From positions 122,518-186,517 of the IMG/VR virus record IMGVR_UViG_3300026521_000471: a DNA stretch of 64,000 bases. One strand, given 5' to 3'. The position numbers were made by a program, and so were the translations under genes. The DNA comes from a virus. Below, piece by piece: positions 34,841-62,291 of this stretch (positions within the stretch are counted from its first letter, which is position 1; every line of letters starts with the position of its first letter). Under the pieces are notes generated by a model, which had not been told where the DNA came from, made no database searches, and was given only the letters and a program-made list of their open reading frames with translations.

Positions 34841-35755
34841 ATGGCAGTAATTCAAAATATATTCAAAAATCTTGAATACAAATTAAATATGACCGAAGAA
34901 ATAAAACTTTTCAAATGGTCAAATAAAAATATTAAAGAAAAATTAGCGGAATTAATGGATTGGAATGAACAATATTCACCAGAAGCAGTTATTGTTAAAG
35001 CAGCTGAGCAAATTTTAGAATTAAATTATCCTAATGATTATTTAAAGTATTCTGCTATGCAGCAAAAATTTAAACACTCACATCCATTTTATATTGAAAA
35101 TACCGTTGATGATGTATCGGGATTTATTGATTGGGTGAATAGTGTATTTGACCATTTTGATGGGCTTCAAGAAGGTTTATTAGGTGGATTAGTAGTAACT
35201 CCAGCTATTGAGGGGTCTATGATTTCATGCGAATATGAAAAAGGGAAACTTGTAAGAGTACTTAACAAGGGTGATGGAGATGACGCAGAGATGATTATTA
35301 ATATGATGGATTTATCATCAATCCCACAAGAAATTTCAGTTAAGAAAAATATAGCTGTTAGAGGAATAGTCACCCTTAAAGATCCAAATAAAAAGAATAA
35401 AGGACAAACTGTTACATCGGCTGTTAATTCAATAATGTTTGCAGATAATGCTGATGATAGTAATCTAGTATTCATACCTAATGAATGGCTTGCTGCTGAC
35501 GGTAAATGGCAGAATACTTCAAAAACATATCAAATACTTAAAGATAATGGATTTATTGTTCCAGCAGTACATAAGGCTGCACAAGTTATTGAGGCTCTTG
35601 AAAAATATGAAGAATACATTGCAACAGATTTTGGTTATGAATTAATGGGTTGTAGAATTGAAGTAGAAAAATCAGATACAATTAATGAGCTTATTGACAT
35701 TATGAAAGAAGAAAATCTTTCAGATTATCAACATAAAATAATTTTGATGGGATAA
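34841..35755 (+). CDS. hypothetical protein
   Basis: ORF track; AAAAGGAG ribosome-binding site. Confidence 0.45.
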   Translation: MAVIQNIFKNLEYKLNMTEEIKLFKWSNKNIKEKLAELMDWNEQYSPEAVIVKAAEQILELNYPNDYLKYSAMQQKFKHSHPFYIENTVDDVSGFIDWVNSVFDHFDGLQEGLLGGLVVTPAIEGSMISCEYEKGKLVRVLNKGDGDDAEMIINMMDLSSIPQEISVKKNIAVRGIVTLKDPNKKNKGQTVTSAVNSIMFADNADDSNLVFIPNEWLAADGKWQNTSKTYQILKDNGFIVPAVHKAAQVIEALEKYEEYIATDFGYELMGCRIEVEKSDTINELIDIMKEENLSDYQHKIILMG

Positions 35756-46102: not shown

Positions 46103-48793
46103 ATGAATAAAATTAAAACACAAGTACATACTATAATAATGCTTATTGGACCTAGTGGTTCTGGTAAAACAACATTCGCTAATGAAATTCTAATACCCAC
46201 ATTACAAGAATATAAAGGTAGTGGAAATGACAATTTAAAAACAAATATACAATATATTAGTTCTGATGATATTAGAAAAGATATTTTAGGATATAATTAT
46301 AGTAAAATAGATGAAATTATGACTGAAAGTTCAACACAAGCATTTGAAATATTATTTACAAAATTAAGAGCTGTTACTAGTTATCCAATCAATGCTGAAT
46401 TTGTTATTTTAGATACAACTGGATTAAGTGAAAAATTTAGAAATGATGTTTTAGATATAGCAAAAGATAATAATTATAATGTCGATATTATAGTTTTCGA
46501 TTATAAGAATATTGATGAATATCAGAAAAATTTTTCTGATGAAGTTTATCAACAACCTAGTACTAATGGCAAAATTATTTCTAAGCATATAAAAAGATTA
46601 AAAACAGAAACATTAAAAACATTAAAAAAAGGTGTATATAAAAATATTCATAAAATTAAAAATAAAGATTTTCTTTTAGAAGTTGAACAGGAGAATCCAT
46701 ATGATTTAACACCTACTATGTTAAAACCTCTTTATAGTGTAGATGTATGGGATTGGAAAAAATATACTGATAGAATATTAAATAGTACTTATGATTGGAT
46801 TACTATTGGTGATGTTCATGGATGTATTCATGAATTAAAACAATTACTTGAAAAATATGGTTTTATAATTGAAGACAATGAAATCATAGATACAAACAAA
46901 ACAAAAAATATAGGATTGATTTTTGCAGGTGATTTAATTGATAAGTCGTCAGAAGAAGATTTAACTGAAACTATAAGATTTATACATAAAAATATGATAA
47001 AATTTCAAGATCGTTTTCAATTAATATTAGGTAATCATGAAGAGATGGTCTGGAAATGGATAACAAATCATAAAGATTTAGAAATTACTCCAGAACGATT
47101 GGATCAGAAAAAAAGATACTATAATACAGCAATTTTACTAGAGAAAAATGAAGAGTTAAAATCTATGTTTTTAGATATTTTTCATAATATGAAAGGTTGG
47201 GTTAAATTTATAGGATTAAACAAAAGAAGTTTTGTAGTTACACATGCACCATGTGAGGTTAAATATCTCGAAAAAATGGATCGTATTTCATTAAAACGTC
47301 AATATAAATGCGCTAGTAGAAGTAAAAACAAAGATAAGACTAATGATGAACTAACACCATATTTAAAAGAAGAAGCAGTTAATAACCATCCAGTTCACAT
47401 ATTTGGTCATATGGGACAATCATCTGTTAGATCTTTTAAAAATAAAGTTTGTATTGATACAGGCTGTGTATATGGTGGAAGATTAACTGGATACAGTATA
47501 GGATACGGTAAACCATTTATTCAAAGTGTAAAATCATTATCTCCTAAGAGTGCAAGAAACGACTTTGGAAATAATCTATTTGAAGATATAGGTAAAGCTA
47601 TAAAAGAAGTATCTATTGAAGATTTAAATCCATACAACCAAAAAAGATTAGATTATATAGTAAAAAATGGCATAGGATACATAGGAGGTACAATTTCACC
47701 TTCAAATAAAAACATCGAAAAAAATTCACTAGAATCTTTAGATAGTGGACTTAATTATTTCAAAGATAAAGTAGATAGTGTAGTTCTACAACCTAAATAT
47801 ATGGGGTCTAGAGCACAACTGTATCTCTTTAAAGATAATATTGAAAAATGCTATGCTACAAGTAGAAATGGATATAAAATTAGAGAGGACTTAACTGATT
47901 TATTCTCATCTAAATTAATAGAATACAAGCATATTTTTGATATGTATAATGCTGATGAGATAATTATAGATGGTGAATTATTACCATGGGCTCTTTTAGG
48001 AAAAGGTTTGATAGAAACACATTTTAAAACTGCGGATATAGCTATCCAAACAGAAATCGACTTTCTGGATGATAATGGGTTTGATAAGGCTTTTTTAAGT
48101 TTAAAGGATGAATTTAATGAATCAGAATTTTTAAAAGATAAAAATATTTTAGCTAAAAAAGAATTAGCTAAAAAATATGGTCACAAATATCACTCTTATA
48201 AAGATTTAAAATTTGAAATTGATAGATTCATACCTTTAAGTAAACACAAAAAAGCTTGGAAAATTTTCAATAAACAAATAACCCTTTATGGAGATGATAC
48301 AAATACAGATTTTAAAGGTTTTAGATTATTAAAAGTAATATCAAATAACAATATAATCGATTTGGATCTAACCCCTAGCGAACACTTTAAACTATTAAAT
48401 TCAGATGATATTCATATTGTTGATTTCAATGATAAAGACTATTTAGTTAAAGCTGAAAGATGGTATGATGATTTAGTGAGTAATCAAAATATGGAAGGTT
48501 GTGTAATAAAACCGGAAGTAAAGTTATTAGAATCTTGGATTGCTCCATATTTAAAAGTAAGAAATGAAGAATATCTTTCTATCATTTATGGGTATGATTA
48601 TAAATTCCCTGTCAAATTTAATAGATTATTAAATCAAAAAAATATTTCTAAAAAATTAAGACTCTCTATATCAGAGTATAAATTAGGAGAAGAAATGCTT
48701 AAAGCTCCTATGGGTAGTAAAGAACAAATACAGATTATAGCCAATCTATTATTTGAAAATGAAAAAGAAGAAAGCGTCGATCCAAGATTATAA
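46103..48793 (+). CDS. pnkp: bacterial-type polynucleotide kinase-phosphatase-ligase (Pnkp): P-loop 5'-kinase, metallophosphatase, and adenylyltransferase/ligase domains
   Basis: IMLIGPSGSGKTTFAN (kinase P-loop). ITIGDVHGC, IFAGDLIDK and LGNHEE (calcineurin-like phosphatase). C-terminal ...VVLQPKYMGSRAQLY (nucleotidyltransferase KxxG motif I). At 896 aa with this domain order it matches Clostridium-type Pnkp. Confidence 0.85.
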   Translation: MNKIKTQVHTIIMLIGPSGSGKTTFANEILIPTLQEYKGSGNDNLKTNIQYISSDDIRKDILGYNYSKIDEIMTESSTQAFEILFTKLRAVTSYPINAEFVILDTTGLSEKFRNDVLDIAKDNNYNVDIIVFDYKNIDEYQKNFSDEVYQQPSTNGKIISKHIKRLKTETLKTLKKGVYKNIHKIKNKDFLLEVEQENPYDLTPTMLKPLYSVDVWDWKKYTDRILNSTYDWITIGDVHGCIHELKQLLEKYGFIIEDNEIIDTNKTKNIGLIFAGDLIDKSSEEDLTETIRFIHKNMIKFQDRFQLILGNHEEMVWKWITNHKDLEITPERLDQKKRYYNTAILLEKNEELKSMFLDIFHNMKGWVKFIGLNKRSFVVTHAPCEVKYLEKMDRISLKRQYKCASRSKNKDKTNDELTPYLKEEAVNNHPVHIFGHMGQSSVRSFKNKVCIDTGCVYGGRLTGYSIGYGKPFIQSVKSLSPKSARNDFGNNLFEDIGKAIKEVSIEDLNPYNQKRLDYIVKNGIGYIGGTISPSNKNIEKNSLESLDSGLNYFKDKVDSVVLQPKYMGSRAQLYLFKDNIEKCYATSRNGYKIREDLTDLFSSKLIEYKHIFDMYNADEIIIDGELLPWALLGKGLIETHFKTADIAIQTEIDFLDDNGFDKAFLSLKDEFNESEFLKDKNILAKKELAKKYGHKYHSYKDLKFEIDRFIPLSKHKKAWKIFNKQITLYGDDTNTDFKGFRLLKVISNNNIIDLDLTPSEHFKLLNSDDIHIVDFNDKDYLVKAERWYDDLVSNQNMEGCVIKPEVKLLESWIAPYLKVRNEEYLSIIYGYDYKFPVKFNRLLNQKNISKKLRLSISEYKLGEEMLKAPMGSKEQIQIIANLLFENEKEESVDPRL

Positions 48794-57367: not shown

Positions 57368-58771
57368 ATGGCTTTATTAACTTACGATGAAGTATTAGAA
57401 ATCACAAAAATAAATGAAACTTTTAAAATGAAACACCAAAAAATAGGTAACACAGAAATTGCAATGTGTACTTATTTTTTAGCAAATGCAGGTGATTTTT
57501 TTGATGCAAAATTAGATGGCTCTATGGTTAGAGCCACAGAATTAAGAGGTATAACATTTGTAAAAGCTCCAAATTCAGACTGGAAAACATATTTGTTTAT
57601 CGATAAATTTTTTAATATCGGTCAAACAAATGGAACTAATATAACAAATATGGAACTTTCTATCAATGACTCAACTGAAATTTGTAATATTAATAAACTT
57701 TTTATCGATGAAAATGAGAAAACATATCGTGCAATAGATTTAAAGTTAAATATGATTGTTGCTGAATTTGATAGAAATACTGAAACTCATGGGGATTTTT
57801 TTCAAATTTTATCACTAGATAAAAAAGTTTTACCTACATTGAAACCTGAAAATTCTTGGATGTATGAGGATGTAAAAGATTTAGAAATTGTAAGAATTGC
57901 AAATAAAGAAGATGGATCCGCAATAAGATTTCTTTTAATTGAAGGAAAATTAGTGGCTAAAACAAAATTTTCTTTTGAATCAGAACAATGCAAATTAGCT
58001 ATGGAAATAGTTGAAAAAGATCCTAAACTTAAAGCATTTATTTTAACAACTTTAGAGTTTGGATATGCAGCAATTTTTGAAATAGTTTCACCATTTAATA
58101 AAATCGTTTTAACATATCCAGAAACATCTCTTAGATTGTTGCAACTAAGAGATGAAAATAATGATGGGTTATATCTAAATATATATGATAATACATTAGT
58201 AAAAGCATTTAATATCTTGACTGCCAATCAAGAACCTTTATACACACTTGATGAGTTACTTAAATTAAAAGAAACCGTTGAAGATAAAGAAGGTTGGGTA
58301 ATTACATTTGAAAATGGAAAAATGGCAAAGGTAAAAACTGATTGGTATATGTCACTTCATGGTATTTTAACTGATGGGTTAAAAGAACATAAAATAATTG
58401 AAAAGGTTTTAGACGAAACGATTGATGATACTATAGCAATGATACCAGAAGAAAATATTGAAGAACGAGATTTTATTGATGGTATCTCTGAAATTATAAT
58501 TAATCATGTAAATCATTTAGTGTCAGATGCAGAAGCTAAATTTAAAAATTCATGGAATGGAAATAAAAAAGAGTTAGCACTAAAATTTAAGGATGATAAA
58601 CGTGCTTTTCCATATATAATGAGTTTTGCAAATGGAAAAAATATTGAAGAAATTGAAAAACAAGTTATAGATAGAGTTAAATTTGAATGTAGACGTTTAG
58701 AAATGGCTAAACAATACCTTAAAAATTTAGGTTTTGACAAAGAACTCGAAATAAAAATTGAGGATGATTAA
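57368..58771 (+). CDS. rnl1: RNA ligase 1 (T4 Rnl1 / gene 63-like tRNA repair ligase)
   Basis: ELRGITFVKAPNSDWKTYLFIDKFFN, ANKEDGSAIRF (motif I KxDGS), EFGYAAIFEIVSPFNKIVLTYPE and KEGWVITFENGKMAKVKTDWYMSLHG align block by block with T4 Rnl1. Confidence 0.85.
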   Translation: MALLTYDEVLEITKINETFKMKHQKIGNTEIAMCTYFLANAGDFFDAKLDGSMVRATELRGITFVKAPNSDWKTYLFIDKFFNIGQTNGTNITNMELSINDSTEICNINKLFIDENEKTYRAIDLKLNMIVAEFDRNTETHGDFFQILSLDKKVLPTLKPENSWMYEDVKDLEIVRIANKEDGSAIRFLLIEGKLVAKTKFSFESEQCKLAMEIVEKDPKLKAFILTTLEFGYAAIFEIVSPFNKIVLTYPETSLRLLQLRDENNDGLYLNIYDNTLVKAFNILTANQEPLYTLDELLKLKETVEDKEGWVITFENGKMAKVKTDWYMSLHGILTDGLKEHKIIEKVLDETIDDTIAMIPEENIEERDFIDGISEIIINHVNHLVSDAEAKFKNSWNGNKKELALKFKDDKRAFPYIMSFANGKNIEEIEKQVIDRVKFECRRLEMAKQYLKNLGFDKELEIKIEDD

Positions 58772-58773
58772 TC

Positions 58774-58941
58774 ATGAAATACGGTTTTAGTTTATTTGAA
58801 TTAATTATTGTAGTTGTAATATTGGGAATTCTAGCAGCAGTTGCTATTCCTAGATTATCAAATTCTTCATCAAATAATGATAAAATTTCATACAAAAAAA
58901 TAATTTTTACTAATGGTGATGGTGGATCCGCCGAGAATTGA
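58774..58941 (+). CDS. short type IV pilin/pseudopilin-like ORF (55 aa): prepilin leader and N-terminal hydrophobic helix only
   Basis: MKYG|FSLFELIIVVVILGILAAVAIP is a canonical class III signal peptide with Glu at +5. The 3' end overlaps the tmRNA 3' terminus. Not in ORF track because it is under 60 aa. Confidence 0.35.
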   Translation: MKYGFSLFELIIVVVILGILAAVAIPRLSNSSSNNDKISYKKIIFTNGDGGSAEN

Positions 58942-59301
58942 ACTCGGGTCTGCCACTACTTCCATTTAAATCTCATTTACAAGTTTAGTTTGATTTTTAA
59001 TACTTTAATACTTAGATAACCAAACAAATCGGTATTAAAGGCACTTGATATAATTTTCGTCTAAAGGTATCAAGTTTAACTTTAGCTTATCTATTTTTTA
59101 TTATACACTCTGTATTTATTAGTAAATAGACAACTAATAAACTGAGTGATTCCGGGCTCCCAGAGGGAGGATTAAGCAGCTACTCTCGCAGTCTGTGGAA
59201 TATAAAGTTTTGTGTTTGCATTTAAGCTTTTTTGATGATTAAGTCATCACTCTACTTGCAATTTAAATTTCTTATAGCAACATCGATCCCAATTCGGACC
59301 C
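58920..59301 (-). ncRNA. ssrA: tmRNA (SsrA), 382 nt
   Basis: Minus-strand 5' end GGGUCCGAAUUGGGAUCGAUG resembles the tmRNA 5' end GGGGCUGAUUCUGGAUUCGAC. The 3' end is ...CCGAGUUCAAUUCUCGGCGGAUCCACCA (T-arm plus acceptor plus CCA). The acceptor stem pairs with a G3:U70 wobble (alanine identity). An internal tag ORF (59219..59172) reads GCA AAC ACA AAA CUU UAU AUU CCA CAG ACU GCG AGA GUA GCU GCU UAA, giving ANTKLYIPQTARVAA, followed by a CUCCC/GGGAG helix. Confidence 0.8.
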
Positions 59302-59310
59302 ATAAAAAAT

Positions 59311-59337
59311 ATCAGTATATAGAAATTATATACTGAT
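59311..59337. other. perfect 11-bp-stem hairpin (ATCAGTATATA-gaaat-TATATACTGAT) just upstream of the tmRNA 5' end
   Basis: Read from the sequence; flanked by a T-run on the minus strand. Confidence 0.5.
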
Positions 59338-59575
59338 ATGATAATATCCTTTATTTTATACCCAAGGTAACAAAGAACCCTTTACATAAAAAAACACATA
59401 CGATATTAATTTATCTTTTTACTTGTAAGTAAATTAGAGCGTTATCAATTAAGATAAATACGTTCCATAAGAGTTATTTTCTCTAGGTCAATCTCTAAGA
59501 TAAAATTTTAAAGAGTAATTTAAATCTCTTATATATTTATTTTACAATTTTTAATTTAATTATAAGGTATTTTTT

Positions 59576-59584
59576 GATATAATA
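59576..59584 (+). promoter_or_regulatory. extended -10 promoter TGATATAAT upstream of rsr
   Basis: TTTTTTGATATAATATATTAC, 36 nt before ATG 59620, which carries a TAAGGAG ribosome-binding site. Confidence 0.45.
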
Positions 59585-59619
59585 TATTACAAATTTTAAA
59601 TAATTAAGGAGATTGTCCT

Positions 59620-61119
59620 ATGGCAAAATTTAACCAAGGTACTAAAAGTATCCCAAATAGTAAAAATATGGCTGGAGGGGTATCATATGATCGCCCAATA
59701 AAAAAAGAGGTTGCGACTGTTGTTTTAAACTCTATGCTTAATGGTGATTCATATTATGAAAAAGAAGGTGAACGTTTAAAACGAATTGAAACTCTTATCA
59801 CTACATCAAAGTCTGATGCTGAGTTTGTAGCAAAAGCTATGGTGTTTACTAGAACAAATGGTCGTCTTAGAAGTATTTCACATTTCATGGCAAATATTTT
59901 AGCAGAAAATGTAAAAGGTAGTGACTTTTTACGTTCAGCATTAACAAAAGCTATTGTAAGACCGGATGATATGACAGAAATGTTATCACTTTGGGATACA
60001 AGAAATCCAAATAAAATGGTTCCGAATTCACTTAGAAGAGCCTTTAAGAAAGCTTTGGAAACTAAATTTGATGAATATCAATTTCGTAAATATGCTCAAC
60101 CAAAATCAAAAGTGAAACTAAAAGATGTCGTTAAACTAGCACATCCTTCACCTAAGAATTTTGATGATGAAACTATTTTTAAAAGAGTTATCGAAGATCA
60201 ATTAAAGGCTGTTGAAACAGCACAAACTATCAATGCATCTAAAACTGGTGAAGATCGAGTTGAAGCATATATGAAAGAAATTAAATCTGGTAAAATGGGT
60301 TATATGGCAGCATTAAAAAATATTAGAACATTGATGGAAAATAATATTTCAGAAGATGACTTAAAACAATGGTCTAATTTTATAACTGATCCTAAAAGGG
60401 TACAAAAATCAATGGTACTTCCATTTAGATTTGTTGATGCATGGAATGCTGTAAAAGATTTACCTATTAATGAATTTAAGAAAAATATTGTTAAGAAAGC
60501 ACTTGAGAGAGCTTTTGCCCTATCAGCTGGAAATACAAATATTGCTTCTGATGATGAAAAAGTGGCTATTTTACTTGATGAATCAGGTTCTATGGGCGGA
60601 TATTCAAATAATGACCGTAAAACACCATTTTATATTGGTAAAGTATTATCAGCTGCGATGAAAGTAGGTATGGATGATGATAAGTGTCTGTTTTATACTT
60701 GGGCAGATACATGTACAAGAAGAGATATAAAAGGTTTGTCATCTTTTGATTTTATCAATAATTTAAATACTAGAGGTGGAGGTACTGATGTATCAGCTCC
60801 TTTAAAAGAGTTAATTAAAACAAAAACATTTGTTGATAAAATTATAATCTTTAGTGATATGCAGATGTATGGTGGATGGGGAAATATTGGAGATCAACTC
60901 AAAAATTATTTAAAAACATATCGTAAAGAAGTCAATCCAAATGTAAAAGTATTATTTTGGAATTTAGAAGGATATGGTGGTGGTTCACCATTAGATATTG
61001 AAAAAACATCTGATATTTTTGAAGTAGCTGGTTTTTCAGATAGCATGCTTCAAATTATACCTAAATTATGGAGTGATAAAGATTTTTTAATTAAAGAGAT
61101 TGAAGCTATATCACTTTAA
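59620..61119 (+). CDS. rsr: Ro60-related protein (Rsr): TROVE domain plus vWA domain
   Basis: N-terminal NMAGGVSYDRPIKKEVATVVLNSMLNGDSYYEKEGERL (TROVE), KLKDVVKLAHPSP (the Ro60 RLSHLKP region), vWA MIDAS VAILLDESGSMGG and TRGGGTD, IIFSDMQ, and C-terminal VAGFSDSMLQII (Ro60 CGFDTGALDVI). Confidence 0.8.
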   Translation: MAKFNQGTKSIPNSKNMAGGVSYDRPIKKEVATVVLNSMLNGDSYYEKEGERLKRIETLITTSKSDAEFVAKAMVFTRTNGRLRSISHFMANILAENVKGSDFLRSALTKAIVRPDDMTEMLSLWDTRNPNKMVPNSLRRAFKKALETKFDEYQFRKYAQPKSKVKLKDVVKLAHPSPKNFDDETIFKRVIEDQLKAVETAQTINASKTGEDRVEAYMKEIKSGKMGYMAALKNIRTLMENNISEDDLKQWSNFITDPKRVQKSMVLPFRFVDAWNAVKDLPINEFKKNIVKKALERAFALSAGNTNIASDDEKVAILLDESGSMGGYSNNDRKTPFYIGKVLSAAMKVGMDDDKCLFYTWADTCTRRDIKGLSSFDFINNLNTRGGGTDVSAPLKELIKTKTFVDKIIIFSDMQMYGGWGNIGDQLKNYLKTYRKEVNPNVKVLFWNLEGYGGGSPLDIEKTSDIFEVAGFSDSMLQIIPKLWSDKDFLIKEIEAISL

Positions 61120-61139
61120 TATTAGATAGGGAAACCTAT

Positions 61140-61970
61140 CTAATCAATGGGTGACAAATCAACTAATTCTTGATTTCCTTCTTCATCAATTTCAATCTCA
61201 AATTCTCTACCTTCTAAATTTTCTTTAGCATACTCATCACTATAATAATAGTCCCACGAAGTTTGTAAAGAGTTTTGTAATGTATCATAATGTTCTTCTA
61301 AAAGATTATTAACTTCTTCAACATAAAGCTCTATTTCATTTTCTATTTGACTTTCTATTTCAGCTCGTATTTCAGAAGTTAAATCATAAAATTCATTCAA
61401 ATCCATATTATAAACATCTTGAAAAAACATTTTTGATGCTTTAATGCCATCTTTAATACTATTCAATGAGTCTTTATATTCCGGTTCATAACCTAATTCA
61501 TTTAACCATTTTTCAATTGACTGTTCAACTTCAAAAACTATTTCGATTTGTTCTCCATCCTCTAATGGATCTAAAAAAATCCTTGATTCGATTTCACTAT
61601 CTATAACATCAGTATCGATATAATAATCTTCAGTTTCTAATTCATAATTTTGAAAACTATATGGAAGATCATAAACAAATGATTCTTTTTCAAATTCATC
61701 CAAACGAGATGACTTAATTTCTTTAATAGATTTATGACCATCATCGATTGTACCTCTATATTCTAATTCATTTCTATAAAGGTCGAATGTAAAACTATCT
61801 TCATCTATATCTATCCCAAATTCAGTTTTCATAGTATTGACAAAATCATCAAAAATCCACTCATACCAATCTTCAGGAACTAAAAATTCATCTTCCTGAA
61901 AATTAACAATTATTTCTTCTTTTAATTTTTGAGGTAAATCCTCAAATTTTACAATTTCAGTTTTAAACAT
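61140..61970 (-). CDS. hypothetical acidic protein
   Basis: ORF track. Confidence 0.45.
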   Translation of the reverse strand: MFKTEIVKFEDLPQKLKEEIIVNFQEDEFLVPEDWYEWIFDDFVNTMKTEFGIDIDEDSFTFDLYRNELEYRGTIDDGHKSIKEIKSSRLDEFEKESFVYDLPYSFQNYELETEDYYIDTDVIDSEIESRIFLDPLEDGEQIEIVFEVEQSIEKWLNELGYEPEYKDSLNSIKDGIKASKMFFQDVYNMDLNEFYDLTSEIRAEIESQIENEIELYVEEVNNLLEEHYDTLQNSLQTSWDYYYSDEYAKENLEGREFEIEIDEEGNQELVDLSPID

Positions 61971-62015: not shown

Positions 62016-62291
62016 CTAATCATTACGGATGATACCAAATATTTCATCCATTTCAATAATTAATAATTTTTCTTTATCTAATTCAATTTCAGTACCAGAA
62101 AATTTTCCAAAAACAACTGTCGTACCAATATCTACACCGAAATCTTCTTTAGTATCATCGTTACATGCTACAATTTTTCCAAAAGATGGAGTTTCTTTTG
62201 ATGAATCAGGTATAATAATACCACTTGCTGTTGTTTTCTGAGCTTCCTCTACTTTTACCGCTACTCTAGTTCCTAATGGTTCAAAATTCAT
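62016..62291 (-). CDS. groES: co-chaperonin GroES / T4 gp31-like (Hsp10)
   Basis: MNFEPLGTRVAVKVEEAQKTTASGIIIPDSSKETPSFGKIVACNDD...GTTVVFGKFSGTEIELDKEKLLIIEMDEI matches the GroES mobile loop and beta-barrel signature. Confidence 0.8.
   Translation of the reverse strand: MNFEPLGTRVAVKVEEAQKTTASGIIIPDSSKETPSFGKIVACNDDTKEDFGVDIGTTVVFGKFSGTEIELDKEKLLIIEMDEIFGIIRND

What the first reader, a model, noticed from the sequence alone, without database searches (positions are those of the whole stretch)
59302..61119. Ro60 (Rsr) orthologue with a ~320-nt upstream non-coding region that may encode a Y-RNA, adjacent to the tmRNA
TROVE plus vWA (MIDAS DESGS) with Ro60-specific blocks is clear. Bacterial and phage rsr genes are typically flanked by Y-RNA genes. 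The 59302..59619 region is non-coding and contains several palindromes (TTACTTGTAAGTAA, TTATCAATTAAGATAA) and the 11-bp hairpin at 59311..59337. Rnl1, a pilin-like ORF, ssrA, a possible Y-RNA and rsr together form a compact RNA-surveillance island.
Basis: partly seen in the sequence, partly recalled or inferred. Interest (0 to 1): 0.7.

Follow-up and report, generated by a model that had tools for sequence, protein, structure and literature searches.

The report
Phage Ro60 gene without Y RNA
A large phage carries a genuine Ro60 (Rsr) RNA quality-control gene next to its own tmRNA, but related phages keep a Y-like RNA gene in the gap in front of it, and here that gene is missing and only promoters, a tmRNA leader hairpin and a small conserved structured element remain.

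Summary
The gene call is right. 59620-61119 (+) encodes a Ro60/Rsr orthologue: Pfam TROVE scores 59 bits, the MIDAS residues D320-x-S322-x-S324 are present, and the top 13 PDB matches of the AlphaFold model are all Ro60/Rsr. It sits beside a tmRNA (58920-59301, -) and an Rnl1-type RNA ligase.

The Y-RNA idea for 59302-59619 is not supported. Rfam Y_RNA and YrlA give nothing at E<=10. Neither strand has CGAA, GNCGAA, GGUCCGA or a T-loop.

Relatives (45-78% Rsr identity) carry 1-6 covarying Y-like RNAs beside rsr. A covariance model built from these scores 49-84 bits on full-length members. Its best window score is 17.6 bits.

The closest relative with a longer spacer (L046) has orthologues of both flanks of the window's spacer. 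A promoter plus a 280-nt Y-like RNA lies between them, and the window lacks that segment.

The spacer holds:
- a pre-tmRNA leader with a 13-bp hairpin and a U-tract;
- a conserved ~110-nt element X (59436-59545) with three covarying hairpins;
- back-to-back promoters, TGTAAAAT on the minus strand and TGATATAAT for rsr.

X diverges seven times more slowly than synonymous sites. Its function is unknown. A Y RNA elsewhere in the ~220-kb genome cannot be excluded.

The parts
59620..61119 (+). rsr: Ro60/Rsr orthologue (TROVE HEAT-repeat ring plus vWA domain with MIDAS D320-x-S322-x-S324, T389, D413)
   Evidence: Pfam TROVE 59.1 bits. PDB phmmer 9KOP at 1.3e-14. AF2 model plus Foldseek: the top 13 matches are Ro60/Rsr. 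dN/dS is 0.06 against the 95% relative.
59575..59583 (+). rsr promoter: extended -10 TGATATAAT behind a T-run. The RBS AAGGAG lies at 59606-59611.
   Evidence: Motif scan. The region is orthologous to the rsr-proximal promoter of L046, L047 and L071. There are 3 differences in 74 nt against L005.
59539..59546 (-). P_X: minus-strand promoter-like TGTAAAAT, back-to-back with the rsr promoter and pointing toward X and the tmRNA
   Evidence: TGTAWAAT is about 8-fold enriched in non-ORF sequence of the window (18 of 38 copies in 10% of the sequence) and precedes genes. A copy in this orientation lies 8-28 nt beyond the last hairpin of X (Hc; Hb in L071) in the window and all 6 relatives that have X.
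59436..59545 (.). Element X: conserved structured non-coding element. Hairpins are Ha 59442-59457, Hb 59469-59485 and Hc 59511-59530, with a conserved AGGTCAATCTCT at 59485-59496. Minus-strand transcription is favoured.
   Evidence: blastn against L046 gives 72% over 156 nt, E=3.5e-19. nhmmer gives E of 1e-27 to 1e-29 in L046, L047 and L005. Compensatory changes occur in all three hairpins. There are 5 differences in 110 nt against L005, versus 0.32 per synonymous site.
59364..59382 (.). Small hairpin H2 (AAGGT-N8-ACC(C)TT) plus a degenerate proximal -10-like TATAAAAT on the minus strand (59360-59353)
   Evidence: The homologous segment in L046 (2323-2352, 83%) has a compensatory U-A to C-G change. 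Conservation is moderate: 13 differences in 97 nt for 59341-59435.
59302..59339 (-). Pre-tmRNA leader: 13-bp hairpin (59339-59327 / 59321-59309) followed by AUUUUUUAU, directly upstream of the mature tmRNA 5' end
   Evidence: Perfect 13-nt arms. The fold is -15.5 kcal/mol, z = -2.6. Both stem substitutions in L005 give G.U on the minus strand and C.A on the plus strand. Visible or predicted hairpins of unrelated sequence occupy the same position in the other relatives, well supported by folding in L005 and L003, marginally in L047, and not better than shuffles in L046, L007, L009 and L071.
58920..59301 (-). Phage tmRNA (ssrA), tag ANTKLYIPQTARVAA*
   Evidence: ARAGORN. Rfam RF00023 at 115.5 bits.
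58774..58941 (+). 55-aa ORF with a prepilin N-methylation motif. Its last 22 nt overlap the tmRNA 3' end.
   Evidence: PF07963 at 3.9e-6. A similar ORF is called in L005, L046 and L047. Nucleotide identity to L005 is only 70-72%.
57368..58771 (+). Rnl1-type (T4 gp63-like) RNA ligase
   Evidence: PF09511 at 49.6 bits. PHROG 562 at 4.9e-50.

Best explanation
59620-61119 encodes a functional phage Ro60/Rsr. The 318-bp spacer in front of it is not a Y-RNA gene. It is a compacted control region between two divergently transcribed units, the tmRNA (minus strand) and rsr (plus strand).

Reading left to right, the spacer holds:
1. The 5' leader of the tmRNA precursor, with a 13-bp hairpin and a U-tract.
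2. A weakly conserved stretch with a small hairpin and a degenerate -10.
3. Element X, about 110 nt, made of three covarying hairpins.
4. A minus-strand TGTAAAAT promoter and the plus-strand rsr promoter TGATATAAT, set back to back about 30 bp apart.

X is most likely the 5' part of a minus-strand transcript that starts near 59532. That transcript either ends at the 13-bp hairpin and U-tract as a roughly 230-nt RNA, or reads on into the tmRNA as a long leader (inferred).

In the nearest relatives with longer spacers, a separate TGTATAAT promoter and a 280-nt Y-like RNA lie between X and the rsr promoter. A block of about 400 nt lies between X and the tmRNA promoter. Both segments are absent here, most simply by deletion (inferred from orthologous flanks).

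This Rsr therefore works with a Y-like RNA encoded elsewhere in the ~220-kb genome, with a host RNA, or without one (not resolved).
For: Rsr identity. Purifying selection: dS 0.42, dN/dS 0.06.

No Y RNA in the spacer. Rfam finds nothing on the 2.7-kb region or on the spacer alone at E<=10. Neither strand has CGAA, GNCGAA, GGUCCGA (up to 2 mismatches) or a T-loop.

Clade model R1 was built from 14 Y-like RNAs, and its consensus structure is well supported: 92% of cells pair against 61% in shuffles, and the covariation score is 0.81 against 0.23. R1 gives 36 matches at E<=1 in the relatives, all on the rsr strand; the 27 full-length matches score 46-84 bits and the rest are partial matches to long forms at 20-32 bits. 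In the window it gives 0 hits with default filters. Its best window score with filters off is 17.6 bits, on plain hairpins.

The long-form profile has no window hit (best E=19). It hits L046, L047, L048, L007, L009, L011, L071, L003 and L072 at E of 1e-60 to 1e-7.

Orthologous flanks: window 59436-59582 matches L046 2435-2588, and window 59550-59622 matches L046 2925-3003. The L046 Y-like RNA lies at 2629-2906, between the two.

Constraint on X and on the promoters. Hairpin covariation. Promoter motif enrichment and conservation.

Strand: all five informative substitutions give G.U on the minus strand and A.C on the plus strand. RNAalifold favours the minus strand by 3-4 kcal/mol for the relatives' block.
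Against: There are no transcript data, so promoters, ends and strand of X are inferred.

The strand evidence is thin: five substitutions give p of about 0.03. One outer pair of a doubtful closing helix favours the plus strand. Hc followed by a U-rich tail also looks like a weak plus-strand terminator.

Only 64 kb of a genome of about 220 kb was searched. At least one relative keeps a Y-like RNA inside a tRNA array away from rsr (L077). 'No Y RNA' therefore holds for this interval and this window, not for the whole phage.

A Ro-binding RNA with no resemblance to any known Y RNA cannot be excluded by homology methods.
Confidence: 0.7

Rival explanations
1. The spacer does encode a Ro60 partner RNA: a highly divergent Y RNA, with element X as the obvious candidate. 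It would bind Rsr through a motif unlike those of YrlA, Yrn1, metazoan Y RNAs or the clade's own Y-like RNAs.
For: X is strongly constrained (5 differences in 110 nt against 0.32 per synonymous site) and structured. It lies next to rsr in the window and next to the Y-like RNA in relatives. Chen et al. 2014 (PMC4201824) note that immunoprecipitation found Ro-bound RNAs that bioinformatics had missed. Rsr is still under strong purifying selection although the Y-like RNA is absent.
Against: There is no conserved 5'-3' closing stem around X; the candidate stem is broken in L005 without compensation. No CGAA-type motif is present, and neither Rfam nor R1 gives a signal. In relatives X coexists with a bona fide Y-like RNA and tracks the minus-strand tmRNA, not rsr: rsr loci without an adjacent minus-strand tmRNA (L003, L011, L048, L070) lack X. 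The strand evidence points away from the rsr strand, whereas Chen et al. found nearly all best YrlA matches on the rsr strand and every Y-like RNA found here is on it too.
Confidence: 0.08
2. X is the 3' end of a plus-strand non-coding RNA. Hc plus the U-rich tail would be its terminator. In the window the 5' two-thirds and the promoter are lost, so X survives only as a terminator or insulator, or as the upstream region of the rsr promoter.
For: Hc is followed by AUAUAUUUAUUUU on the plus strand in the window and by comparable U-rich tails in L046 and L071. X always sits 30-75 nt upstream of the next plus-strand promoter: rsr in the window, the Y-like RNA in relatives. One G-U pair favours the plus strand.
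Against: The U-tract is not adjacent to the stem; the gap is 2-12 nt. The conserved octamer in that tail reads TGTAWAAT on the minus strand in all 7 sequences, which is the phage's own promoter motif, whereas the plus-strand reading is poor in L046 and L071. Non-Watson-Crick pairs in Hc are A.C on the plus strand. A mere remnant would not be held at 4.5% divergence.
Confidence: 0.17
3. X acts at the DNA level. Its AGAG-N7-10-CTCT inverted repeats would be operators for a phage or host regulator that controls the divergent rsr and tmRNA-side promoters.
For: Two AAGAG...CTCT(T/A) palindromes (59469-59485 and 59511-59530) and a third CTCT repeat lie within 110 bp of two back-to-back promoters. 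Sequence conservation is high between the hairpins too.
Against: The arm sequences change in a pairwise-compensating way while the loops stay similar: AAGAG/CTCTT becomes AAAGG/CCTTT, and TTATC/GATAA becomes TTACC/GGTAA, then TTCCA/TGGAT, then GTTCG/CGAAC. That pattern is the signature of a folded nucleic acid, not of a fixed protein-binding half-site. Spacer lengths differ between the repeats.
Confidence: 0.05

Closest known systems
Bacterial and mycobacteriophage Rsr with YrlA RNAs (Chen et al. 2014, RNA 20:1715, PMC4201824; Rfam RF02553)
   Same: The protein is the same kind: a TROVE ring plus a vWA domain. Relatives of this phage carry RNAs of the same architecture on the rsr strand, within about 1.3 kb of rsr in the flanks examined. 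They have a 5'-3' closing stem, a conserved 5' motif ending in UCG(N)A, and in some copies a T-arm, acceptor-like stem and D-arm. One of these (L016 2033-2146) is the best YrlA match, at 33.4 bits and E=0.0018.
   Different: The window itself has no such RNA next to rsr. The relatives' RNAs score below the YrlA gathering cutoff of 69 bits. They use GAUUACAUCG instead of GNCGAAN0-1G. They occur in up to 6 tandem copies and include tRNA-less short forms (80-100 nt) and long forms (280-360 nt).
phiRo60 with Yrl1 and Yrl2 of Thermus phage phiLo (Hu et al. 2025, NAR 53:gkaf470, PMC12135203; PDB 9KOP, 9L5Y)
   Same: This is the closest solved structure: phmmer 1.3e-14, Foldseek TM 0.67-0.72. Both are phage-encoded Ro60 proteins.
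   Different: Identity is only about 20%. The upstream region here lacks any CGAA-bearing stem-bulge-stem. No interaction with PNPase can be inferred.
Deinococcus radiodurans Rsr-Yrn1-PNPase (RYPER) machine (PDB 2NVO)
   Same: The fold is the same (Foldseek E=2.9e-13, TM 0.61). It is the likely mechanistic model for what the protein does: it threads structured or misfolded RNA ends through the ring toward an exonuclease.
   Different: No tethering Y RNA was identified here. Identity is 16%. The setting is a phage, alongside a phage tmRNA and RNA-repair enzymes.
T4 Pnkp plus Rnl1 RNA repair, and phage-encoded tmRNAs
   Same: The window encodes an Rnl1-type ligase (57368-58771) and an 896-aa kinase/phosphatase fusion (46103-48793). 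It also encodes a full-length tmRNA.
   Different: The linkage of these genes with rsr is specific to this phage clade. No anticodon-nuclease target is known here.

Membership tests
Ro60 / Rsr (TROVE2) proteins | TROVE (HEAT-repeat ring) domain | tested here: met
   PF05731 at 59.1 bits against a cutoff of 23. PHROG 850 at 1.7e-35.
Ro60 / Rsr (TROVE2) proteins | C-terminal vWA domain with MIDAS DxSxS...T...D | tested here: met
   D320-E-S322-G-S324, T389 and D413 are invariant across 22 relatives. The model shows a beta-alpha-beta fold from residue 315 to 470. Pfam vWA_Ro60 itself scores only 23.6 bits, below its 27.7 cutoff.
Ro60 / Rsr (TROVE2) proteins | Overall fold superposes on solved Ro60 rings | tested here: met
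   Foldseek against the PDB: ranks 1-13 are all Ro60/Rsr (9KOP, 9L5Y, 2NVO, 1YVP, 2I91, 9NEN and others), E from 5e-15 to 5e-9, TM 0.57-0.72. The next hit is at E=2e-3.
Ro60 / Rsr (TROVE2) proteins | Binds Y RNA and misfolded RNA | not testable with these tools
   This needs a pull-down or EMSA.
YrlA / bacterial Y RNA (RF02553), tested on 59302-59619 | Covariance-model match | tested here: not met
   No YrlA or Y_RNA match at E<=10 on either strand, either in 58700-61400 or in 59290-59640 alone. As a positive control, the same library finds a relative's RNA at E=0.0018.
YrlA / bacterial Y RNA (RF02553), tested on 59302-59619 | GNCGAAN0-1G (CGAA) Ro-binding motif near the 5' end | tested here: not met
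   Neither strand has CGAA, G.CGAA, or GGUCCGA with up to 2 mismatches.
YrlA / bacterial Y RNA (RF02553), tested on 59302-59619 | tRNA-like T and D stem-loops | tested here: not met
   No GTTCRANNC or TTCRA on either strand. ARAGORN finds only the tmRNA in the whole window.
Clade-specific Y-like RNAs (model R1: stem, GA-AUUAYAG-N5-GAUUACAUCG ... YGMUUUYA-UC, stem) | Closing module with two covarying helices and the GAUUACAUCG motif | tested here: not met
   Full-length family members score 46-84 bits. The window gives 0 hits with default filters, and its best score with filters off is 17.6 bits, E=0.79, on plain hairpins. An exact TTACATCG occurs only at 35412, inside an ORF. The long-form profile's best window hit is E=19.
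tmRNA (RF00023), tested on 58920-59301 | tRNA-like domain plus tag reading frame | tested here: met
   115.5 bits against a gathering score of 47, covering the full model 1-374. ARAGORN gives the tag ANTKLYIPQTARVAA*.
Rnl1 RNA ligase (PF09511), tested on 57368-58771 | RNA_lig_T4_1 domain | tested here: met
   49.6 bits against a cutoff of 28.3. PHROG 562 at 4.9e-50.

The most novel reading that the evidence does not exclude
Element X with its minus-strand promoter is the working core of an undescribed phage non-coding RNA that is transcribed with, or just ahead of, the phage tmRNA. Relatives carry a version of about 500 nt that matches nothing in Rfam. In this lineage X may have taken over a role in the Rsr/tmRNA RNA-surveillance module, possibly as a non-canonical Rsr partner, after the Y-like RNA was lost.
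Probability: 0.2. Interest if true: 0.6.

Novelty: new member of a known kind. Interest (0 to 1): 0.35.

Why it matters
Phage Ro60 proteins with Y-like RNAs are known (Chen 2014; phiLo 2025), so the gene itself is one more member of a known kind.

The useful result is the contrast within one clade. Close relatives keep 1-6 Y-like RNA genes immediately beside rsr. This lineage lacks them at that spot, yet keeps rsr under strong purifying selection (dN/dS 0.06).

That makes it a natural test case for whether a Ro60 can work without a cis-encoded Y RNA, or whether the RNA has simply moved, for example into a tRNA array.

The work also defines a well-supported Y-like RNA family with a distinctive GAUUACAUCG module, and two conserved non-coding elements that match no Rfam family: X, and a block of about 500 nt in relatives. 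Both are linked to phage tmRNA genes.

Tried and rejected
- Rfam at the gathering threshold on the whole window found only the tmRNA.
- Rfam at E<=10 on 2.7 kb and on the spacer alone gave only noise: snoRNA, miRNA and PyrG-leader hits at E of 2-9.
- Single-sequence folding of the spacer gave z = -3.1 (plus) and -2.5 (minus). The 13-bp hairpin dominates both, so the fold does not identify a gene.
- I considered 'TTTACATAAAAAAACACATACGA' (59382-59404) as a decayed copy of the family's 5' motif. I rejected it because it is the least conserved part of the spacer; in L005 ACATACGA has become AATTATGA.
- I considered a closing stem 59426-59435 / 59535-59545 around X. I rejected it because L005 breaks it without compensation and L047 lacks it.
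- I tried to identify the relatives' ~500-nt block. Rfam found nothing at E<=5. An invariant 17-mer scanned against GTDB genomes gave 20 scattered hits, no more than the ~70 expected by chance, and none in IMG/VR.
The 119 loci returned were screened with the X profile, and only one matched it marginally, E=0.004.
- MFE comparison of the two strands of X, sequence by sequence, was inconclusive.
Full report
**What is there.** The window is AT-rich (25-30% GC) and looks like part of a large phage. It encodes a T4-type topoisomerase II, a DnaB-like helicase, PhoH, an Rnl1-type ligase and a kinase/phosphatase fusion. A 95%-identical copy of the flagged gene lies on a 221.5-kb metagenomic contig with the same gene order. 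The nearest named phages are ~190-kb Vibrio phages (pv27, Va1, SRILMA), at about 50% protein identity.

**The flagged ORF and its neighbours.** The ORF at 59620-61119 (+) is a Ro60/Rsr orthologue.
- Pfam TROVE scores 59.1 bits against a cutoff of 23. vWA_Ro60 is just below its cutoff.
- The MIDAS residues D320, S322, S324, T389 and D413 are invariant across 22 relatives.
- phmmer finds the solved Ro60 of Thermus phage phiLo at 1.3e-14.
- An AlphaFold model (pLDDT 81) has all 13 of its best PDB matches in Ro60/Rsr structures, at TM 0.57-0.72. The next hit is eight orders of magnitude weaker in E-value.
- Against the 95% relative, dS is 0.42 and dN/dS is 0.06, so the gene is under strong purifying selection.

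- tmRNA at 58920-59301 (-);
- Rnl1 at 57368-58771;
- a 55-aa ORF with a prepilin N-methylation motif at 58774-58941.

**Testing the Y-RNA idea directly.** Rfam 15 includes Y_RNA and YrlA, and it returns nothing relevant at E<=10 on either strand. This holds for 58700-61400 and for the spacer alone, where the filters are most permissive. Chen et al. 2014 define YrlA by three features: a GNCGAAN0-1G motif near the 5' end, T- and D-arm-like stem-loops, and a position within 4 kb of rsr on the same strand. The phiLo study used the CGAA motif within a stem-bulge-stem. The spacer has no CGAA, no G.CGAA, no GGUCCGA with up to two mismatches, and no T-loop on either strand.

**What relatives have.** I collected rsr loci from metagenomes and phage genomes. 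Most of these relatives, at 45-78% Rsr identity, carry one to six small RNA genes on the rsr strand. These usually lie just upstream of rsr. They share a closing module:
- a terminal stem of 8-12 bp;
- GA-AUUAYAG;
- a 5-nt variable arm;
- GAUUACAUCG;
- a variable interior;
- the complementary arm;
- YG(A/C)UUUYA-UC;
- the other strand of the terminal stem.

In 14 short members, 18 of 20 predicted pairs show compensatory changes. On a formal count, 92% of cells pair against 61% in shuffles. The covariation score is 0.81 against 0.23, and against 0.12-0.26 when partners are slid.

The family comes in several sizes. Short forms are 80-102 nt. Forms of 123-160 nt carry a T-arm, an acceptor-like stem and a D-arm; one of these is the best Rfam YrlA match, at 33.4 bits and E=0.0018, below the gathering score. 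Long forms are 280-360 nt.

These are therefore Y-like RNAs of the YrlA kind with a clade-specific Ro-binding-type motif. A motif scan of IMG/VR that did not depend on rsr found three further contigs. Two have the RNAs beside rsr. One has an extra copy inside a tRNA array away from rsr.

**The window lacks them.** Covariance model R1, built from the short forms, gives 36 matches at E<=1 in the relatives, all on the rsr strand. The 27 full-length matches score 46-84 bits. The remaining nine, at 20-32 bits, are the two ~220-nt Vibrio-phage RNAs and partial 5'-half matches to long forms. In the window it finds nothing at E<=10 with default filters. With filters off, the best scores are 14-17.6 bits on plain hairpins. 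A profile of the long forms has no window hit better than E=19. The same profile hits every 68-78% relative for which enough upstream sequence is available, except L070, where only R1 gives a weak partial match (E=0.12). The window's 95% twins share its short spacer.

**How the spacer arose.** Relative L046 (78% Rsr identity) keeps the window's gene order: Rnl1, the prepilin-motif ORF, tmRNA (-), rsr. It has about 1 kb between the tmRNA and rsr. Two segments of the window's spacer have orthologues in L046:
- window 59436-59582 aligns to L046 2435-2588 (72% over 156 nt, E=3.5e-19);
- window 59550-59622, the rsr promoter and RBS, aligns to L046 2925-3003.

Between these two segments L046 has a TGTATAAT promoter, a small hairpin and a 280-nt Y-like RNA at 2629-2906. 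The window has none of that.

A second segment, present in L046, L047, L007 and L009 between the tmRNA promoter and X, is also absent from the window. It is a conserved non-coding block of about 400 nt.

Y-like RNAs beside rsr are found across the clade, including its distant members. Absence in the window lineage is therefore most simply a loss. L049 and L073, which have genes abutting rsr, appear to have lost them independently.

**Anatomy of the spacer.**

A U-tract (AUUUUUUAU) follows it on the minus strand and abuts the mature tmRNA 5' end. In L005 the two stem substitutions give G.U pairs on the minus strand and C.A mismatches on the plus strand. Hairpins of unrelated sequence can be drawn at the same position in L003, L046, L047, L007, L009 and L071, between a TGTATAAT promoter and the tmRNA. 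Only those of L005 and L003 fold clearly better than shuffled sequence, and L047 is marginal. The hairpin therefore belongs to the tmRNA-strand transcript. It serves either as a leader structure or as a terminator for whatever is transcribed upstream.

*59341-59435.* This stretch is moderately conserved (13 differences in 97 nt). It contains a small hairpin with one compensatory change against L046, and a degenerate -10.

*Element X, 59436-59545.* X has three hairpins.
- Ha is UUAUC/GAUAA in the window, UUACC/GGUAA in L046, UUCCA/UGGAU in L047 and GUUCG/CGAAC in L071.
- Hb is AGAG/CUCU in most sequences, GGAG/CUCC in L007 and CAGAG/CUCUG in L071.
- Hc is AAGAG/CUCUU in the window, CAAAGG/CCUUUG in L046 and AUGG/CCAU in L009.

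X differs from L005 at 5 of 110 positions, whereas synonymous sites in rsr differ at 0.32 per site. It is clearly under constraint.

*The promoters.* At the right edge of X, the octamer ATTTTACA reads TGTAAAAT on the minus strand. TGTAWAAT is this phage's promoter motif: 18 of its 38 copies lie in the 10% of the window outside ORFs, typically behind a T-run and ahead of a gene. The same motif drives the tmRNA and the Y-like RNA genes in relatives. A minus-strand copy lies 8-28 nt beyond the last hairpin of X (Hc; Hb in L071) in the window and all six relatives with X. The rsr promoter TGATATAAT (59575-59583) lies about 30 bp away on the other strand. The two form a back-to-back pair.

**Strand and role of X (inferred).** All non-Watson-Crick pairs in the extended Hc helix are A.C on the plus strand, which is G.U on the minus strand, in three different sequences. 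The two leader-hairpin substitutions point the same way. RNAalifold also favours the minus strand for the relatives' block by 3-4 kcal/mol. I therefore favour a minus-strand transcript that starts near 59532 with Hc at its 5' end. It would either stop at the 13-bp hairpin and U-tract, giving an RNA of about 230 nt, or continue into the tmRNA.

The evidence is thin. The plus-strand reading, in which Hc is a weak terminator ahead of the rsr promoter, remains a live rival. X has no Rfam relative. It occurs only in loci where a minus-strand tmRNA adjoins rsr. That links it to the tmRNA side, not to Rsr.

**Verdict.** The protein call and the gene neighbourhood are correct, and this kind of gene is already known. 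The proposed Y RNA is not in the interval. The interval is the place where relatives keep theirs, and that gene is missing here.

Whether this phage has a Y-like RNA elsewhere cannot be settled from 64 kb of a ~220-kb genome. One relative keeps a copy in a tRNA array, and this window has no tRNA genes.

The unexplained residue is element X, which is small, structured and strongly conserved.

Noticed in passing
L046 2007-2539; L047 2029-2533; L007 2903-3438; L009 2901-3394; partial copies in L070 778-1009 and L072 1837-2088: A conserved non-coding block of about 500 nt lies in these relatives. In L007 no ORF longer than 44 aa overlaps it. It is richer in GC than its surroundings and has long invariant runs such as TCATTGCTTACACAGTA and TAAGACATTCA.CATCTGGTC. 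Rfam finds nothing at E<=5. The window keeps only its X end. The strand is unresolved, with RNAalifold slightly favouring the minus strand. It may be an undescribed large phage RNA.
   Followed up: partly
Relatives, e.g. L016 1696-2923 (6 copies), L018 2053-2889 (5), L020 2292-2942 (4), L075 12587-13822 (6), L001 4669-4892 (Vibrio phage pv27): Tandem arrays of Y-like RNAs share a GA-AUUAYAG-N5-GAUUACAUCG closing module with strong covariation. They come in short forms, tRNA-like forms and long forms of 280-360 nt. The long-form interiors are conserved between phages (for example L018 2182-2543 and L022 2242-2582) and were not analysed.
   Followed up: partly
L077 2967-3088 (the same 79.7-kb contig as the rsr locus L031/L076): One Y-like RNA copy sits between tRNA-Arg and tRNA-Thr in a tRNA array, away from rsr. 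Y-like RNAs in this clade are therefore not always next to rsr.
   Followed up: partly
window 58774-58941: A 55-aa ORF has a type IV prepilin N-methylation signal (MKYGFSLFELIIVVVILGILAAVAIPRL...). Its last 22 nt overlap the tmRNA 3' end on the opposite strand. A similar ORF is called at the same place in L005, L046 and L047, but nucleotide identity to L005 is only 70-72%, the lowest in the locus.
   Followed up: partly
window 46103-48793: An 896-aa protein combines a polynucleotide-kinase-like N-terminus (PHROG 505) with a NinI-type phosphatase domain (PHROG 246). With the Rnl1 ligase 9 kb away, it forms a T4-like Pnkp plus Rnl1 RNA-repair pair.
   Followed up: no
window, e.g. 3962, 7939, 9736, 15940, 32791, 42298, 48803, 49817 (+); 63747 (-): The motif T-run plus TGTA(T/A)AAT recurs in intergenic gaps ahead of genes (18 of 38 copies lie in the 10% of sequence outside ORFs). 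It is probably the main promoter type of this phage.
   Followed up: partly
window 59046-59054 (+) and 59107-59100 (-), inside the tmRNA gene: Two promoter-like octamers (TGATATAAT and TGTATAAT) fall within the tmRNA gene itself. They may be chance matches in AT-rich sequence.
   Followed up: no
window 62016-62291 (-): A Cpn10/GroES-like co-chaperonin gene lies downstream of rsr. It is conserved in this position in L005, L009, L011, L049, L071 and L073.
   Followed up: no
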